From the NCBI RefSeq assembly GCF_988242995.1, contig NZ_OZ547043.1: a stretch of DNA of 64,000 nt. One strand, 5' to 3'. Position 1 is the stretch's first letter. Each line of letters begins with the position of its first letter. This document shows, in pieces, positions 45,347 to 53,209 of this stretch. The position numbers and the translations under genes were made by a program. The notes beneath the pieces were generated by a model, which was given only the letters and a program-made list of their open reading frames with translations, did not search any database and had not been told where the DNA came from.

Positions 45347-46057
45347 GTGCACAGAAAACCCCCAGCTAGGCTGGGGGTTCCGGAAAGCTTTCAGCTTTGA
45401 GCCAGTTATTAAAACCCCTTTTGATTTGTTAAAACACCTTGCGGTCTGGCAACTGCAAGTGTCAAACAAGAAATCAAAAGGGGGTCCCAATGGGGGACGA
45501 AAAGAGCTTAGCGCACACCCGCTGGAACTGTAAATATCACATAGTTTTTGCGCCGAAATACCGAAGACTGGCGTTTTACGGAGAGAAGCGTAGGGCGATA
45601 GGCAGTATTTTGAGAAAGCTGTGTGAGTGGAAAAGCGTACGGATTCTGGAAGCAGAGTGCTGCGCAGATCATATCCATATGCTTGTGGAAATCCCACCCA
45701 AAATGAGCGTATCCGGCTTTATGGGATATCTGAAAGGGAAAAGCAGTCTGATGCTTTACGAGCAGTTTGGGGATTTGAAATTCAAATACAGAAACAGGGA
45801 GTTCTGGTGCCGAGGGTACTATGTCGATACGGTGGGTAAGAACACGGCGAAGATACGTGACTACATAAAGCACCAGCTTGAAGAGGATAAAATGGGGGAG
45901 CAGTTATCGATTCCATATCCGGGCAGCCCGTTTACGGGCCGTAAGTAACGAAGTTGAATGCAAATGTCAGATCGTATGCGCCTGTTAGGGCGCGGCTGGT
46001 AACAGAGCCTTACAGGCGCATTTGAAAAACCTCCGGCTATGCCGGAGGATATTTATT
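45344..46057 (+). mobile_element. IS200-family insertion sequence, copy B (~714 bp), same orientation as copy A
   Basis: Apparently identical to copy A over its full length (all overlapping six-frame ORFs translate identically); right end abuts the ycaC stop codon. Confidence 0.9.
45490..45948 (+). CDS. tnpA: IS200 Y1 (HuH) transposase TnpA
   Basis: 152-aa ORF identical to the copy A transposase. Confidence 0.92.
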   Translation: MGDEKSLAHTRWNCKYHIVFAPKYRRLAFYGEKRRAIGSILRKLCEWKSVRILEAECCADHIHMLVEIPPKMSVSGFMGYLKGKSSLMLYEQFGDLKFKYRNREFWCRGYYVDTVGKNTAKIRDYIKHQLEEDKMGEQLSIPYPGSPFTGRK

Positions 46058-46683
46058 TATTTCTGCTTCGTTAATGTGTCATAACTGGTCATCAAATTAC
46101 GATAATCAGGAATGTGGTTAGAGAACAACGTCGCCAGTCCTTCAATATCATTACGCCAGTCACGGTGCAGCTCGCACGCCACGCCGAACCATGTCATCAA
46201 TTGCGCACCAGCTTGCGACATGCGATCCCATGCCGAATGCCGGGTAATTTCATTAAAGGTCCCTGACGCGTCAGTCACGACAAATACATCAAACCCTTCT
46301 TCAATGGCTGAAAGCGCCGGGAATGCCACGCAAACTTCGGTTACCACACCGGCAATAATTAACTGTTTTTTACCTGTCGCTTTGACAGCTTTTACAAAAT
46401 CTTCGTTATCCCAGGCGTTAATATTTCCCGGGCGAGCAATGTAAGGTGCATCGGGAAACTGTGCTTTCAGTTCTGGAACTAATGGGCCGTTAGGACCGGT
46501 TTCAAAACTGGTGGTAAGAATAGTAGGTAAGTTGAAATACTTAGCCAGGTCGCCCAGCGCCAGCACGTTATTTTTAAACTTATCGGGTTCGATATCCCGT
46601 ACAAGGGAAAGTAAACCAGCCTGGTGATCAACAAGCAAAACGGCAGCATCATTTTTATCAAGACGAACATACGGTTTGGTCAT
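46057..46683 (-). CDS. ycaC: Isochorismatase-family hydrolase YcaC
   Basis: 208-aa ORF MTKPYVRLDKNDAAVLLVDHQAGL...; cysteine-hydrolase fold motifs. Confidence 0.9.
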   Translation of the reverse strand: MTKPYVRLDKNDAAVLLVDHQAGLLSLVRDIEPDKFKNNVLALGDLAKYFNLPTILTTSFETGPNGPLVPELKAQFPDAPYIARPGNINAWDNEDFVKAVKATGKKQLIIAGVVTEVCVAFPALSAIEEGFDVFVVTDASGTFNEITRHSAWDRMSQAGAQLMTWFGVACELHRDWRNDIEGLATLFSNHIPDYRNLMTSYDTLTKQK

Positions 46684-46997: not shown

Positions 46998-48146
46998 ATG
47001 TCCACGTATACCCGGCCTGTCATGCTTTTGCTGTCTGGCCTGCTTTTGTTGACTCTGGCGATCGCAGTGTTAAATACACTCGTGCCGCTTTGGCTCGCCC
47101 AGGAACACATGTCCACATGGCAGGTAGGCGTTGTCAGCTCATCCTATTTTACCGGCAACCTGGTCGGTACATTGCTGACAGGGTATGTCATTAAGCGCAT
47201 TGGCTTTAACCGCAGCTATTATCTGGCCTCCTTCATTTTTGCCGCTGGCTGTGCCGGCCTTGGCCTGATGATTGGATTCTGGAGCTGGTTGGCTTGGCGT
47301 TTTGTCGCCGGCGTCGGCTGTGCCATGATTTGGGTGGTTGTTGAGAGCGCGCTGATGTGCAGTGGGACGTCACGTAACCGTGGGCGTTTGCTTGCTGCGT
47401 ATATGATGGTTTATTACGTGGGAACGTTTTTAGGCCAGTTACTGGTCAGCAAAGTTTCAACCGAGCTGATGTCCGTATTGCCGTGGGTTACAGGTTTGAC
47501 GTTGGCAGGGATCTTACCGCTGTTGTTTACGCGTGTGCTGAATCAGCAGGCTGAAAAGCATGATTCGACGTCAATTACGTCAATGCTAAAACTCCGTCAG
47601 GCGCGGCTTGGCGTGAATGGCTGTATTATCTCAGGAATCGTTCTGGGATCTCTATATGGCCTGATGCCGCTGTACCTCAATCACAAAGGGGTGAGCAATG
47701 CCAGCATTGGTTTCTGGATGGCGGTACTGGTCAGTGCGGGTATCCTTGGACAATGGCCGATTGGACGTCTGGCGGATAAGTTTGGTCGACTGCTGGTGTT
47801 GCGTGTTCAGGTCTTTGTCGTCATTCTCGGCAGTATCGCGATGCTTAGCCAGGCGGCGATGGCCCCAGCGTTATTCATCCTCGGTGCCGCTGGCTTTACG
47901 CTATATCCGGTGGCGATGGCATGGGCTTGCGAGAAAGTTGAACATCATCAACTGGTGGCAATGAACCAGGCCTTACTGTTGAGCTATACCGTGGGAAGTC
48001 TGCTTGGCCCGTCATTTACTGCCATGCTAATGCAGAATTTCTCCGATAATTTATTGTTTATCATGATCGCCAGCGTATCGTTTATCTATTTGCTGATGCT
48101 GCTTCGCAACGCCGGTCATACGCCGAAACCCGTTGCTCACGTGTAA
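46998..48146 (+). CDS. ycaD: MFS transporter YcaD
   Basis: 382-aa ORF with ~12 predicted hydrophobic spans. Confidence 0.85.
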
Positions 48147-48355
48147 ATGAATTCAAGCAAAGTGTGAACTTACTGTTTCACACTCTGCTTTTTTGTTTCT
48201 TCTATCTGACTTGCTTTATTCCAAATTTTATTCGTTTAAAAATAAAATGTGCAGCAGGTTATAATTTTGCATTTCGCTATTTCCGCACTTCTTATTTGCC
48301 GCGCATAATCCCTCGTTTTACAGATGCCCCTTTAATTTTGGCGAAGGATTTGTCT

Positions 48356-49786
48356 ATGGCTGGGAATGTTCAGGAAAAACAGCTGCGATGGTACAACATT
48401 GCGCTGATGTCTTTTATCACTGTCTGGGGTTTTGGCAACGTTGTTAATAACTACGCCAACCAGGGGCTGGTGGTTGTTTTTTCATGGGTGTTTATCTTTG
48501 CGCTCTATTTCACACCTTATGCGCTAATTGTTGGTCAGTTAGGCTCGACCTTCAAAGATGGGAAGGGCGGGGTCAGTACCTGGATTAAACACACGATGGG
48601 ACCCGGACTGGCTTACCTCGCCGCGTGGACCTACTGGGTAGTGCATATTCCCTATCTGGCACAAAAACCCCAGGCAATACTGATTGCGCTCGGTTGGGCG
48701 ATGAAAGGCGACGGTTCGTTAATCAAAGAATATTCAGTCGTAGCGTTACAGGGGTTAACGCTGGTGCTGTTTATCTTCTTTATGTGGGTTGCTTCACGCG
48801 GTATGAAATCGCTGAAAATCGTCGGTTCTGTGGCAGGGATTGCGATGTTTGTTATGTCGCTCCTGTATGTGGCGATGGCGGTAACCGCGCCTGCGATTAC
48901 TGAAGTGCATATTGCGACCACAAACATTACCTGGGAAACGTTCATTCCTCATATCGACTTTACCTACATTACCACTATTTCAATGCTGGTTTTCGCGGTT
49001 GGCGGAGCAGAGAAGATTTCTCCTTACGTTAATCAAACGCGCAACCCAGGAAAAGAATTTCCAAAAGGGATGTTATGCCTGGCGGTGATGGTTGCGGTTT
49101 GTGCCATTCTGGGCTCACTGGCGATGGGGATGATGTTTGACTCGCGTAATATCCCGGATGACTTAATGACTAACGGTCAGTATTACGCCTTTCAGAAGCT
49201 GGGCGAGTATTACAACATGGGTAATACTTTAATGGTGATTTATGCCATTGCGAATACCCTGGGACAAGTAGCTGCGCTGGTATTCTCGATTGATGCGCCG
49301 CTTAAAGTGTTATTAGGCGATGCTGACAGCAAATATATTCCAGCCAGTTTATGTCGTACCAACGCTTCTGGTACGCCCGTTAATGGCTATTTTCTGACCC
49401 TGGTGCTGGTGGCGATCCTGATAATGCTACCGACTCTCGGCATTGGTGATATGAACAATCTCTATAAATGGCTGTTGAATCTTAACTCGGTAGTGATGCC
49501 GCTGCGTTATTTATGGGTATTTGTTGCATTTATTGCAGTTGTTCGCCTGGCGCAGAAATATAAACCAGAATATGTCTTTATTCGTAATAAGCCGCTGGCA
49601 ATGACCGTCGGAATTTGGTGTTTTGCCTTTACCGCTTTTGCCTGCCTGACTGGTATTTTCCCGAAAATGGAAGCCTTCACCGCAGAGTGGACATTCCAGT
49701 TGGCGCTGAATGTTGCAACGCCGTTTGTGTTGGTAGGATTAGGACTGATATTCCCGCTGCTGGCGCGTAAAGCGAATGGTAAATAA
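48356..49786 (+). CDS. ycaM: APC-superfamily transporter YcaM
   Basis: ORF 48164..49786 trimmed to MAGNVQEKQLRWYNIALMSF...; 476 aa; polytopic. Confidence 0.8.
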   Translation: MAGNVQEKQLRWYNIALMSFITVWGFGNVVNNYANQGLVVVFSWVFIFALYFTPYALIVGQLGSTFKDGKGGVSTWIKHTMGPGLAYLAAWTYWVVHIPYLAQKPQAILIALGWAMKGDGSLIKEYSVVALQGLTLVLFIFFMWVASRGMKSLKIVGSVAGIAMFVMSLLYVAMAVTAPAITEVHIATTNITWETFIPHIDFTYITTISMLVFAVGGAEKISPYVNQTRNPGKEFPKGMLCLAVMVAVCAILGSLAMGMMFDSRNIPDDLMTNGQYYAFQKLGEYYNMGNTLMVIYAIANTLGQVAALVFSIDAPLKVLLGDADSKYIPASLCRTNASGTPVNGYFLTLVLVAILIMLPTLGIGDMNNLYKWLLNLNSVVMPLRYLWVFVAFIAVVRLAQKYKPEYVFIRNKPLAMTVGIWCFAFTAFACLTGIFPKMEAFTAEWTFQLALNVATPFVLVGLGLIFPLLARKANGK

Positions 49787-49950
49787 TTATTGTGGTCGGT
49801 GACGCTGACTCTGGCAGATCTGACCCGTTTTTACATAATCGAGAAATGCGCGCAAGCCGCAGGACATATACTGGCGGTTTGGGTAATACATTTGGAAGCT
49901 GTGCTGTAAGGGCGTTAGAAATAGAGCTCTGAATTATTATGCAGCGCGGA

Positions 49951-49983
49951 ATAAAAAAGCGGCAACTCAATAAAGTTGCCGCT
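49951..49983 (-). terminator. Intrinsic terminator downstream of pflA
   Basis: AGCGGCAACT-CAATAA-AGTTGCCGCT with minus-strand U-tract (plus AAAAAA 49953-49958). Confidence 0.65.
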
Positions 49984-49994
49984 TTACGGGGAAA

Positions 49995-50735
49995 TTAGAA
50001 CATTACCTTATGACCGTACTGCTCAAGAATGCCTTTCACGCGTTCCATGGTTTCTTTCTTAGGTGGTTTAACACCATCGAGTTTGTATTCTTCACCCATC
50101 GCCACCCATTTGTGTTTGCCCAGTTCGTGGTAGGGGAGAAGCTCGATTTTCTCAACGTTGCCCATATCACGGGTAAATTCACCGAGGCGATGCGCTGAAT
50201 CGTCATCGTCAGACCAGCCTGGGACAACAACGTAGCGGATCCACACCTTCACATTTTTGTTCGCCAGATATTTGGCGAACTCCAGCGTGCGGTGGTTTGA
50301 AACTCCAACCAGATTTTGGTGGATCTCGTCGTTCATCTGTTTGAGATCGAGCATTACCAGGTCGGTTACTTCCAGCAGTTCATCAATCACCGGATCGTAA
50401 CGACGAACAAAACCGTTGGTGTCCAGACAGGTATGAATGCCTTCTTTTTTGCAGGCGCGGAACCAGTCACGAACAAACTCAGCTTGCAGGATTGCTTCAC
50501 CGCCGGATGCGGTAACGCCGCCGCCGGAAGCGTTCATAAAGTGGCGATAGGTCACCACCTCTTTCATTAAATCTTCAACGGTAACTTCTTTACCGCCATG
50601 CGTGTCCCAGGTGTCGCGGTTATGACAATACAGGCAGCGCATCAGGCAGCCCTGGAAAAAGGTGATAAAGCGAATACCCGGGCCGTCTACGGTTCCACAG
50701 GATTCAAAGGAGTGAATGCGACCAATAACTGACAT
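49995..50735 (-). CDS. pflA: Pyruvate formate-lyase activating enzyme (radical SAM)
   Basis: ORF 49995..50762 (-) trimmed to [23 protein letters not shown]; CxxxCxxC radical-SAM motif ([10 protein letters not shown]); 246 aa. Confidence 0.95.
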
Positions 50736-50926
50736 TGCGGTGTTTCTCCAGATGTGGCCCATCTGAGGCCGTGTTGGTGCGCAGCTCGAAGGCTACGTCG
50801 AGTCTGTTTTGGCAGTCACCTTAAAGTATAGATAGCTGACAAAAAAGGCTCTCGTGCTAAAAAAGGCCCCACTTTCGTGGAGCCTTTATTGTACGCTTTT
50901 TACTGTACGATTTCAGTCAAATCTAA

Positions 50927-53209
50927 TTACATAGATTGAGTGAAGGTACGAGTAATAACGTCCTGCTGCTGTTCTTTAGTCAGCGAGTTGAAACGTACTG
51001 CGTAGCCAGATACACGGATGGTCAGCTGCGGATATTTTTCCGGGTTTTCCATCGCGTCGAGCAGCATTTCACGGTTCATCACGTTAACGTTCAGGTGCTG
51101 ACCACCTTCGATGGATGCTTCGTGGTGGAAGTAACCATCCATCAGACCAGCCAGGTTGGTCTTACGAACTTCGTCGTCTTTACCCAGTGCGTTCGGAACG
51201 ATAGAGAAGGTGTAGGAGATACCATCTTTAGCGTAAGCAAACGGCAGTTTAGCAACGGAAGTCAGAGAGGCTACTGCACCTTTCTGGTCACGACCGTGCA
51301 TCGGGTTAGCACCCGGTCCGAACGGCGCGCCAGCACGACGACCGTCTGGGGTGTTACCAGTTTTCTTACCATACACAACGTTAGAAGTGATGGTCAGAAC
51401 AGACTGAGTCGGGATAGCGTCACGGTAGGTGTGCAGTTTCTGAATTTTCTTCATGAAACGTTCTACCAGGTCAACAGCCAGGTCATCTACACGCGGATCG
51501 TTGTTACCAAACTGCGGGTATTCGCCTTCGATTTCGAAGTCGATAGCCAGACCGTCTTCGTCACGAATCGGTTTAACTTTCGCATATTTGATTGCAGACA
51601 GGGAGTCAGCAGCAACGGACAGACCAGCGATACCACACGCCATAGTGCGGATAACGTCACGGTCGTGCAGCGCCATCAGAGAGGCTTCGTAGCTGTACTT
51701 GTCGTGCATGTAGTGGATGATGTTCAGTGCAGTGATGTACTGTTTAGCCAGCCAGTCCATGAAGTGATCCATGCGCTCCATCACTTCATCGTAGTTCAGG
51801 AGATCGCCTTTGATCGGTTCAGACTTCGGACCAACCTGCATTTTCAGTTTTTCGTCAACGCCGCCGTTGATTGCGTACAGCATGGTTTTCGCCAGGTTTG
51901 CACGCGCACCGAAGAACTGCATTTGTTTACCAACGATCATCGGGCTTACGCAGCAAGCGATAGCGTAGTCATCGTTGTTGAAGTCCGGACGCATCAGGTC
52001 ATCGTTCTCATACTGCAGAGAAGAGGTGTCGATGGACACTTTAGCGGCGAATTTCTTGAAGTTCAGCGGCAGTTTTTCAGACCACAGAATGGTCATGTTC
52101 GGTTCCGGAGACGGACCCATGGTGTACAGGGTGTTCAGGAAACGGAAGCTGTTTTTGGTAACCAGGGTACGACCGTCGAGGCCCATACCACCGATAGATT
52201 CGGTTGCCCAGATCGGGTCGCCAGAGAACAGTTCATCGTATTCCGGAGTACGCAGGAAGCGAACCATACGCAGTTTCATGACCAGGTGGTCAACCATTTC
52301 CTGCGCTTCTTGTTCGGTGATCTTGCCAGCTTTCAGGTCACGTTCGATGTACACATCCAGGAAGGTGGAGGTACGACCGAAGGACATTGCAGCGCCGTTC
52401 TGAGACTTAACAGCAGCCAGGTAGCCAAAGTAAGTCCACTGGATAGCTTCCTGAGCGTTGGTAGCCGGACCAGAGATGTCGTAGCCGTATTTCGCAGCCA
52501 TTTCTTTCATCTGACCCAGAGCGCGGTGCTGTTCAGCGATTTCTTCGCGCAGACGGATAGTCTGTTCCAGGTTTACGCCGTTTTCCAGATCAGCCTGCAG
52601 AGAGGTGAACTGTGCAAGTTTGTCTTTCATCAGGTAGTCGATACCGTACAGCGCAACGCGACGGTAGTCACCGATGATACGACCACGGCCATAAGCATCT
52701 GGCAGACCGGTCAGAACACCGGATTTACGGCAACGCAGGATGTCCGGAGTGTAAACGTCGAACACGCCCTGGTTGTGAGTTTTACGGTATTCAGTGAAGA
52801 TTTTTTTGATCATCGGGTCCAGTTCGCGGTTGTACGCTTTGCAGGAACCTTCGATCATTTTGATACCACCGAACGGGATAAGAGCACGTTTCAGCGGAGC
52901 TTCAGTCTGCAGACCAACGATTTTCTCAAGCTGCTTGTTGATGTAGCCAGCGTCGTGAGAGGTGATGGTGGAAGCAACAGCGGTGTCAAAGTCAACTGGC
53001 GCGTGAGTGCGGTTTTCCAGTTTAACGCCTTCCATTACTTTGTCCCACAGGGTGGTGGTCGCTTCAGTAGCGCCAGCCAGGAAGGACTCGTCACCCTCGT
53101 ACGGAGTGTAGTTTTTCTGAATGAAGTCACGGACGTTTACTTCATTCTGCCAGTCACCTTTGGTAAAACCTTCCCAGGCTGTGGCTAACTTTTCATTAAG
53201 CTCGGACAT
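50927..53209 (-). CDS. pflB: Pyruvate formate-lyase (formate C-acetyltransferase)
   Basis: 760-aa [27 protein letters not shown]...; C-terminal glycyl-radical motif RVSGYAVRF. Confidence 0.97.

What the first reader, a model, noticed from the sequence alone, without database searches (positions are those of the whole stretch)
49787..49994. Very short ycaM-pflA interval; K-12 gene(s) apparently absent here
Only ~208 bp separate the ycaM stop from the convergent pflA stop, and that space is largely filled by a terminator hairpin. From memory, K-12 has one or two additional genes here (ycaN, a LysR-type regulator, and/or ycaK). My coordinate arithmetic from remembered K-12 positions suggests ~700 bp more in K-12, which fits one small gene better than two. 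So this strain seems to differ in gene content at this junction, but I cannot say exactly which gene is missing.
Basis: inference. Interest (0 to 1): 0.3.

Follow-up and report, generated by a model that had tools for sequence, protein, structure and literature searches.

The report
Common ycaN-ycaK deletion allele next to pflA
This E. coli genome carries a common deletion that removed most of the regulator gene ycaN and nearly all of the oxidoreductase gene ycaK between ycaM and pflA; about one in five sequenced E. coli share it and public annotation already marks the leftover as a pseudogene, so it is ordinary.

Summary
Exactly 208 bp (49787-49994) separate the ycaM stop from the convergent pflA stop.

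K-12 has 1,680 bp here, holding both ycaN and ycaK. The window is therefore 1,472 bp shorter, not about 700 bp, and both genes are lost, not one.

The interval is not mostly terminator:
- 49787-49899 is an in-frame relic of the last 36 codons of ycaN.
- 49900-49909 is the last three codons plus stop of ycaK.
- 49910 to about 49942 is a diverged copy of the ycaK-pflA spacer.
- 49956-49985, with the T-run at 49946-49955, is the pflA terminator.

The locus has three alleles among 5,426 complete E. coli genomes:
- This short form is in 1,023 genomes, including O157:H7 and O145:H28.
- The K-12 form is in about 3,320-3,340.
- A form lacking ycaM, ycaN and ycaK is in 1,047.

RefSeq already annotates the ycaN relic as a pseudogene.

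Four other Escherichia species representatives also hold ycaN relics and no ycaK, with at least three different junctions in all. Two other enterobacterial genomes keep ycaN-ycaK next to pflA. The module is therefore old at this locus and has been lost repeatedly.

This is real, ordinary and of low interest.

The parts
48356..49786 (+). ycaM (APC-family permease), intact. This is the left anchor of the interval. The start is taken from the K-12 annotation; the longest mechanical ORF starts at 48164.
   Evidence: tblastn gives 99.8% identity to K-12 YcaM over residues 1-476. RefSeq annotation of identical alleles agrees.
49787..49899 (-). ycaN pseudogene relic: the stop codon plus the last 36-37 codons of the LysR-type regulator YcaN, in frame. 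The HTH domain and most of the substrate-binding domain are missing.
   Evidence: blastn aligns window 48000-49899 with K-12 L001 1501-3400. The translation SFQMYYPNRQYMSCGLRAFLDYVKTGQICQSQRHRPQ* matches K-12 GFQIYYPN...RPQ*. tblastn matches YcaN residues 267-302 at 97%. PGAP annotates a 111-bp pseudogene 'missing N-terminus' in identical alleles.
49899..49900 (.). Deletion junction (GGAAGC|TGTGCTGTAA). The ycaN relic is joined directly to the last 10 nt of ycaK.
   Evidence: MAFFT alignment of short alleles with K-12 and direct sequence reading. A 45-mer spanning the junction occurs in exactly 1,023 genomes, the same number that carry the whole 208-bp short interval.
49900..49942 (+). ycaK tail (last 3 codons plus TAA, 49900-49909) followed by a relic of the ycaK-pflA spacer. 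This version is diverged from K-12 and closest to E. albertii.
   Evidence: blastn does not align it to K-12. Pairwise alignment shows homology to the ycaK end plus spacer of E. albertii (38 of 51 shared columns), L007/L008 and K-12 (about 60%).
49946..49985 (-). Intrinsic terminator of pflA: stem-loop 49956-49985 and T-run 49946-49955 on the minus strand. It is conserved in all three E. coli alleles.
   Evidence: Terminator scan, RNA fold at -20.7 kcal/mol with z = -4.4, and a perfect 12-nt inverted repeat. The same hairpin is present in K-12 and in form C.
49995..50735 (-). pflA (pyruvate formate-lyase 1 activating enzyme), intact. This is the right anchor of the interval.
   Evidence: NCBIfam NF008356 at 524 bits. 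100% identity to K-12 PflA over residues 1-246.

Best explanation
The 208-bp ycaM-pflA interval is a deletion allele of the ycaN-ycaK gene pair. An ancestor carried ycaM> <ycaN ycaK> <pflA, as K-12 still does. A single deletion of about 1.5 kb, by illegitimate recombination, removed the first 266 codons of ycaN, the divergent ycaN/ycaK promoter region, and all of ycaK except its last three codons.

What remains is a promoterless 113-bp ycaN 3' relic, a 10-nt ycaK tail, the old ycaK-pflA spacer and the pflA terminator. The strain therefore has no YcaN regulator and no YcaK NAD(P)H oxidoreductase. ycaM and pflA are untouched.

The allele is one of three common structural alleles at this locus in E. 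coli. It is one of several independent losses of the same module in the genus Escherichia.

Shown: the anatomy, the allele frequencies, the relics and the different junctions. Inferred: the direction of change (loss, not gain), the mechanism (microhomology or hairpin-associated illegitimate recombination) and any regulatory consequence.
For: - **Colinearity with K-12.** It breaks only at 49899/49939. K-12 3401-4911 (1,511 bp) is replaced by 39 bp.
- **The relic.** It encodes YcaN residues 267-302 in frame. A truncated gene end cannot be the ancestor of a full gene.
- **The 39 bp.** It is homologous to the ycaK end plus downstream spacer of other Escherichia.
- **Frequencies among 5,426 complete E. 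coli genomes.** Short form 1,023. ycaN-ycaK DNA present in 3,341. ycaD-pflA fusion form 1,047. These sum to 5,411.
- **No copy in the window.** The window has no other YcaN or YcaK match.
- **Other Escherichia.** L006, L007, L008 and E. albertii L009 all have ycaN relics and no ycaK, and at least three distinct junctions exist.
- **Orthologues elsewhere.** ycaN-ycaK sits between ycaD and pflA in Pseudocitrobacter corydidari (YcaN 79% and YcaK 67% aa identity, against YcaD 82%) and in Enterobacteriaceae bacterium 89. The module is therefore old at this locus.
- **Mechanism.** There are no IS ends or long direct repeats at the breakpoints, only 5-nt microhomologies (GGATA, TAGAT). A 13-nt-arm inverted repeat in ycaN (K-12 L001 3393-3428) lies within about 12 nt of all three left breakpoints.
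- **Existing annotation.** PGAP annotates the relic as a pseudogene.
Against: - The pre-deletion haplotype with this allele's ycaK tail and spacer was not found in any E. coli genome. The exact right breakpoint and any microhomology are inferred from diverged relatives.
- Citrobacter, Salmonella arizonae and diarizonae, Kluyvera and Yokenella have ycaM and pflA 43-140 bp apart with no relic. Without the Pseudocitrobacter-type loci this could be read as the ancestral empty state.
- The whole genome behind the window is not available. A second-site copy of ycaN-ycaK in this particular strain is excluded only by analogy with the public short-form genomes.
Confidence: 0.93

Rival explanations
1. 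The short interval is the ancestral, never-occupied state, and K-12-type strains gained ycaN-ycaK by insertion.
For: Many other genera (Citrobacter, Kluyvera, Yokenella, Salmonella arizonae and diarizonae) have ycaM and pflA separated only by a 43-140 bp spacer, usually one hairpin. Intact ycaN-ycaK shows low diversity in E. coli: at least 99% identity in 3,162 of 3,341 carriers. No genuine YcaK between about 72% and 97% identity was found in a 5.8-billion-protein database; the few hits in that range that were checked were a frameshift variant and a damaged contig. ycaN-ycaK in K-12 has 41-48% G+C, slightly below the flanking genes.
Against: The window holds an in-frame 36-codon ycaN 3' end and a ycaK tail, which an empty site would not have. 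Orthologous ycaN-ycaK sits at the same locus in two other enterobacterial genomes, with divergence similar to the neighbouring ycaD.
Confidence: 0.03
2. ycaN-ycaK are not lost but sit elsewhere in this strain's genome.
For: The genome outside the 64-kb window cannot be read. A handful of records carry ycaN-ycaK DNA on plasmids or in two places (5 plasmid places, at most 2 places per genome).
Against: The allele counts sum almost exactly: 3,341 genomes with the DNA, 1,023 short form and 1,047 fusion form give 5,411 of 5,426. Short-form genomes therefore do not generally carry a second copy. There is no hit in the window.
Confidence: 0.03
3. The short interval is an assembly collapse or sequencing artefact.
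For: None specific.
Against: The identical junction is present in 1,023 independently finished genomes. One of them, VCSW5, is 100% identical over all 208 bp.
Confidence: 0.01

Closest known systems
E. coli K-12 ycaM-ycaN-ycaK-pflA locus (b0899-b0902)
   Same: The flanking genes, their order and orientation are the same. Flank identity is 97.6-98.5%, the pflA terminator is the same, and the last 36 codons of ycaN are the same.
   Different: K-12 has 1,472 bp more: intact ycaN (302 aa LysR-type regulator) and ycaK (196 aa NAD(P)H oxidoreductase). K-12's ycaK-pflA spacer is a different, shorter version.
The same allele in E. coli O157:H7, O145:H28 and about 1,000 other complete genomes, annotated by PGAP as a partial LysR or hypothetical pseudogene
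   Same: The junction is the same, with 98-100% identity over the 208 bp and the same 111-bp pseudogene call.
   Different: Most differ from the window by a 1-nt length change in a T-run of the spacer. Only strain VCSW5 is identical.
ycaN relics in other Escherichia species (E. albertii NBRC 107761, Escherichia sp. E1V33, MOD1-EC7003, strain SCPM-O-B-8794)
   Same: All have ycaM, a ycaN 3' relic, no ycaK, and then the pflA terminator. E. albertii has the junction at the same position as the window and the most similar tail and spacer.
   Different: L007 and L008 break about 10 nt earlier in ycaN and keep 15 nt of ycaK. L006 keeps about 150 nt of ycaN and joins at the ycaK stop. These are independent deletion events.
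Form C allele of E. coli (for example strain Ecol_276): ycaD fused directly to pflA
   Same: It is another deletion at the same locus that ends at the pflA terminator.
   Different: It also removes ycaM and leaves no ycaN relic. Its left breakpoint is just after the ycaD terminator hairpin.

Membership tests
YcaN (LysR-type transcriptional regulator) gene | N-terminal HTH_1 DNA-binding domain (PF00126) and a full LysR substrate-binding domain in an ORF of about 300 aa | tested here: not met
   Only residues 267-302 are encoded. The 97-aa and 46-aa mechanical ORFs in the interval hit no NCBIfam family. This is a pseudogene relic, not a gene.
YcaN (LysR-type transcriptional regulator) gene | Sequence homology and position: convergent with ycaM and abutting it | tested here: met
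   35 of 36 residues are identical to the K-12 YcaN C-terminus, and the stop codon directly follows the ycaM stop as in K-12.
YcaK (Flavodoxin_2 / FMN_red NAD(P)H oxidoreductase) gene | ORF of about 196 aa with PF02525/PF03358 domains, upstream of the pflA terminator | tested here: not met
   There is no tblastn hit anywhere in the window. Only a 10-nt tail homologous to the ycaK end remains.
Rho-independent (intrinsic) terminator | G+C-rich stem-loop followed by a T-run on the transcribed strand, just after a stop codon | tested here: met
   On the minus strand, a 12-13 bp stem at 49985..49956 is followed by TTTTTTATT, 9 nt after the pflA stop. Energy is -20.7 kcal/mol with z = -4.4. Termination activity itself was not tested.
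IS- or transposon-mediated deletion | An IS copy, terminal inverted repeats or target-site duplication at the junction | tested here: not met
   No IS end motifs are present in the window. No direct repeat longer than 5 nt is shared by the two breakpoint neighbourhoods. The two IS200/IS605-type copies in the window lie 4-9 kb away.
Known small RNA or cis-regulatory RNA in the interval | Match to an Rfam covariance model at its gathering score | tested here: not met
   The best Rfam matches score 19.6 and 17.7 bits against gathering scores of 58.7 and 42.

The most novel reading that the evidence does not exclude
The short allele may not be a recent E. coli deletion. It could be an old haplotype shared with E. 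albertii, either by long-lived polymorphism or by introgression. Its junction-proximal stretch of about 60 bp (49883-49942) survives as a diverged island, while recombination has homogenised the flanks.

Taken with at least three further independent losses of the same pair (the L007/L008 type, the L006 type and form C), this would point to recurrent selection against the YcaN-YcaK module next to the pfl-focA operon. Part of E. coli would then naturally lack a regulator reported to affect ycaC, ycaD and focA.
Probability: 0.25. Interest if true: 0.35.

Novelty: already known. Interest (0 to 1): 0.15.

Why it matters
The practical value is annotation hygiene and a caveat about strains. About 38% of complete E. 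coli genomes (the short form plus the ycaD-pflA fusion form) lack ycaN and ycaK.

One RNA-seq and phenotype study in K-12 BW25113 reported that a ycaN knockout changes expression of the neighbouring ycaC, ycaD and focA genes and impairs formate use (PMC9068703). K-12 results on this regulon therefore cannot be carried over to O157:H7-type or similar strains.

The locus is also a small, clean example of repeated independent loss of the same gene pair at a convergent-terminator junction across a genus. It does not open a new question.

Tried and rejected
- **Diverged full-length ycaK as the pre-deletion haplotype.** I looked for one among YcaK hits at 83-91% identity. Of those checked, P0006 and P0008 are K-12-like alleles (L048 is 99.0% identical to K-12 in DNA) in which ycaK is called as 192 aa. 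P0004 is a K-12-like contig (99.5% and 99.0% identity) with a break of about 75 bp in the alignment inside ycaK. P0005 comes from a contig with 84 evenly spread mismatches; those inspected are C-to-T, and there is no third-codon-position bias, so it is an artefact. P0007 was not examined.
- **Junction 45-mer in intact genomes.** None carry it; it occurs in the same number of genomes (1,023) as the whole short interval.
- **IS involvement.** No IS end motifs were found and the nearest IS200-type copies are kilobases away.
- **Function for the two mechanical ORFs in the interval** (49677-49970 minus, 49792-49932 plus). Neither matches any family. The first overlaps the ycaM 3' end in another frame.
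- **Rfam scan of the interval.** Nothing scored near the gathering thresholds.
- **My first working idea.** I thought ycaN-ycaK was inserted in the Escherichia ancestor into an empty ycaM-pflA spacer. I dropped this after finding orthologues at the same locus in Pseudocitrobacter and Enterobacteriaceae bacterium 89.
- **Literature.** Searches found no paper describing this polymorphism.

Full report
**Observation**

The window holds, in order:
- ycaC (46057-46683, minus strand)
- ycaD (46998-48146, plus)
- ycaM (ending at 49786, plus)
- pflA (49995-50735, minus)
- pflB (50927-53209, minus)

**Comparison with K-12**

In a K-12 record (Keio strain JW5503, locus L001) the same gap is 1,680 bp. 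It holds ycaN (302 aa LysR-type regulator, minus strand, its stop abutting the ycaM stop) and ycaK (196 aa NAD(P)H oxidoreductase, plus strand).

blastn aligns window 48000-49899 with L001 1501-3400 at 97.6% identity. It aligns window 49939-50800 with L001 4912-5773 at 98.5%. K-12 positions 3401-4911 (1,511 bp) are therefore replaced by 39 bp, a net difference of 1,472 bp.

ycaN loses codons 1-266. ycaK loses everything but its last three codons.

**Anatomy of the 208 bp**

- **49787-49899, minus strand.** This is the stop codon plus the last 36-37 codons of ycaN, in frame. 35 of 36 residues are identical to K-12.
- **49900-49909.** The sequence TGTGCTGTAA aligns with the last three codons plus stop of ycaK; K-12 has TGCACTATAA.
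- **49910 to about 49942.** This aligns with the spacer downstream of ycaK as found in other Escherichia species. K-12's spacer is a shorter variant, which is why blastn left these 39 bp unaligned.
- **49956-49985 with the T-run at 49946-49955, minus strand.** This is a canonical intrinsic terminator 9 nt after the pflA stop, at -20.7 kcal/mol with z = -4.4. With its T-run it takes about 40 of the 208 bp, so the interval is mostly gene relic, not terminator.

No Rfam family matches the interval. The two mechanical ORFs in it match no protein family.

**How common the allele is**

Among 5,426 complete RefSeq E. coli genomes:
- The whole 208-bp interval is present in one piece in 1,023.
- A 45-mer spanning the junction occurs in the same number of genomes, 1,023. 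Since the 45-mer lies inside the interval, no genome with intact ycaN-ycaK carries it.
- Carriers include O157:H7, O145:H28 and O157:H16 strains.
- The ycaN-ycaK DNA missing from the window is present in 3,341 genomes.
- A third allele, in which the ycaD terminator is fused to the pflA terminator and ycaM, ycaN and ycaK are all absent, is present in 1,047.

The three classes sum to 5,411 of 5,426, so short-form genomes do not generally keep the genes elsewhere. NCBI's PGAP pipeline already annotates the relic as a 111-bp pseudogene labelled 'LysR family transcriptional regulator / hypothetical protein, missing N-terminus'. The feature is thus common and already annotated.

**Direction of change**

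A truncated, in-frame gene end plus the tail of the neighbouring gene can only derive from the full pair. This is a deletion, not an empty ancestral site.

I first suspected that ycaN-ycaK had been inserted in the Escherichia ancestor. Citrobacter, Salmonella arizonae and diarizonae, Kluyvera and Yokenella have ycaM and pflA separated only by a 43-140 bp spacer, usually a single hairpin. However, two other genomes carry clear orthologues between ycaD and pflA, without ycaM:
- Pseudocitrobacter corydidari: YcaN 79% and YcaK 67% aa identity, compared with 82% for the neighbouring YcaD.
- 'Enterobacteriaceae bacterium 89': a YcaK homologue at 60% identity with a divergent LysR-family gene beside it.

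The pair is therefore an old resident of this locus, and the locus is generally unstable. Other genera hold a PTS/transketolase/RpiR operon or a 264-aa ORF of unknown family in the same place.

**Repeated loss within Escherichia**

The four other Escherichia species representatives that encode YcaM all have a ycaN relic and no ycaK. Aligning them shows at least three junctions:
- **Window, O157:H7 and E. albertii.** ycaN is kept to GGAAGC (E. albertii reads GGACGT at the aligned position) and joined to the last 10 nt of ycaK.
- **L007 and L008.** The break is about 10 nt earlier in ycaN, and 15 nt of ycaK are kept.
- **L006.** About 150 nt of ycaN are kept, joined at the ycaK stop codon.

With the E. 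coli form lacking ycaM as well, that makes at least four independent deletions.

The two breakpoint neighbourhoods in K-12 share only 5-nt words (GGATA, TAGAT). No IS ends are present. All three left breakpoints lie within about 12 nt of a 13-nt-arm inverted repeat in ycaN (L001 3393-3428). I infer illegitimate recombination, possibly helped by that hairpin. This is inference, not demonstration.

**An unresolved detail**

The window and K-12 differ at 2.4% of sites across ycaD-ycaM. Within the relic, the first 96 bp are identical to K-12. Three mismatches then fall in the last 17 bp before the junction, followed by the non-alignable tail and spacer.

The tail and spacer are closest to E. albertii: 38 of 51 shared columns, the same junction position, the same TGTGCT tail and the same 8-nt gap. 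This hints that the junction core is an old or introgressed haplotype whose flanks were later homogenised.

The evidence rests on about 60 bp and one genome per outgroup species. I give it about 25%.

**Function**

One study in K-12 BW25113 reports that deleting ycaN lowers ycaC expression, raises ycaD and focA expression, and impairs formate use on a phenotype array. It notes the ycaN-ycaK-ycaM cluster only in K-12 and Shigella boydii (PMC9068703). If that holds, strains with this allele naturally lack that control. I found no paper that describes the polymorphism itself.

**Verdict**

The feature is an ordinary, widespread and already-annotated deletion allele. Interest is low.

Noticed in passing
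window 40467-41180 and 45344-46057: Two identical 714-bp IS200/IS605-family copies. One lies in the serS-dmsA spacer and one in the dmsC-ycaC spacer, each inserted right after a terminator hairpin. The closest complete genome (ST2747) lacks both and has a copy between aroA and ycaL instead.
   Followed up: partly
window 36000-60000: The best match among 5,426 complete E. coli genomes is only about 99.1% identical over 24 kb, and only 21 records reach 99%. The source strain is therefore not closely represented in that collection.
   Followed up: no
L003 1690-1705 (E. coli Ecol_276); corresponds to window 48197-49952: This is a third structural allele, present in 1,047 complete genomes. The ycaD terminator hairpin is joined to the pflA terminator through 4 unaligned bp, and ycaM, ycaN and ycaK are all deleted.
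   Followed up: partly
L011 7420-13206; L013, L033, L042 (similar); L016 7477-8271, L021, L034: In Citrobacter and Kluyvera species the ycaM-pflA gap holds other cargo. One version is a roughly 5-kb PTS (EIIA, EIIB, EIIC-GAT), split transketolase and RpiR operon. Another is a 264-aa ORF with no Pfam match. The junction is a hot spot for gene flux across genera.
   Followed up: partly
L053 2972-4576 and L054 4018-5597: Pseudocitrobacter corydidari and 'Enterobacteriaceae bacterium 89' carry a LysR gene divergent from a ycaK homologue between ycaD and pflA, without ycaM. Extra genes are also present: a CBAH-family gene and a second LysR gene in L053, and a second LysR gene in L054.
   Followed up: partly
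L023 7429-13428 (E. coli strain E69): ycaM is followed by a CHASE9-EAL gene and a GAPES2-GGDEF gene instead of pflA. This indicates a rearrangement with a breakpoint just after ycaM in that genome.
   Followed up: no
L035-L041: Proteins 62-66% identical to YcaM over their full length occur in Clostridium, Pelosinus, Anaerospora and a Sporomusaceae MAG. That is unusually high for such a taxonomic distance and suggests horizontal transfer of this permease.
   Followed up: no
L001 3393-3428 (K-12 ycaN); equivalent left arm at window 49892-49899: A 13-nt-arm, 92%-complementary inverted repeat lies inside ycaN. The left breakpoints of all three Escherichia deletion types fall within about 12 nt of it.
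   Followed up: partly
L051 (Logan SRR24798440 contig): A ycaN-ycaK contig is 92% identical to K-12, with 84 evenly spread mismatches, no indels and no third-position bias. The mismatches inspected are C-to-T. It looks like a bisulfite or damage artefact, not a diverged lineage.
   Followed up: yes
window 49932-49938: The window and strain VCSW5 have one T fewer in the spacer T-run (GAATTATTATG) than O157:H7 (GAATTATTTATG). 986 of the 1,023 short-form genomes match the junction 45-mer at 95-99% identity, and the listed ones show the same 1-nt length difference as O157:H7.
   Followed up: yes
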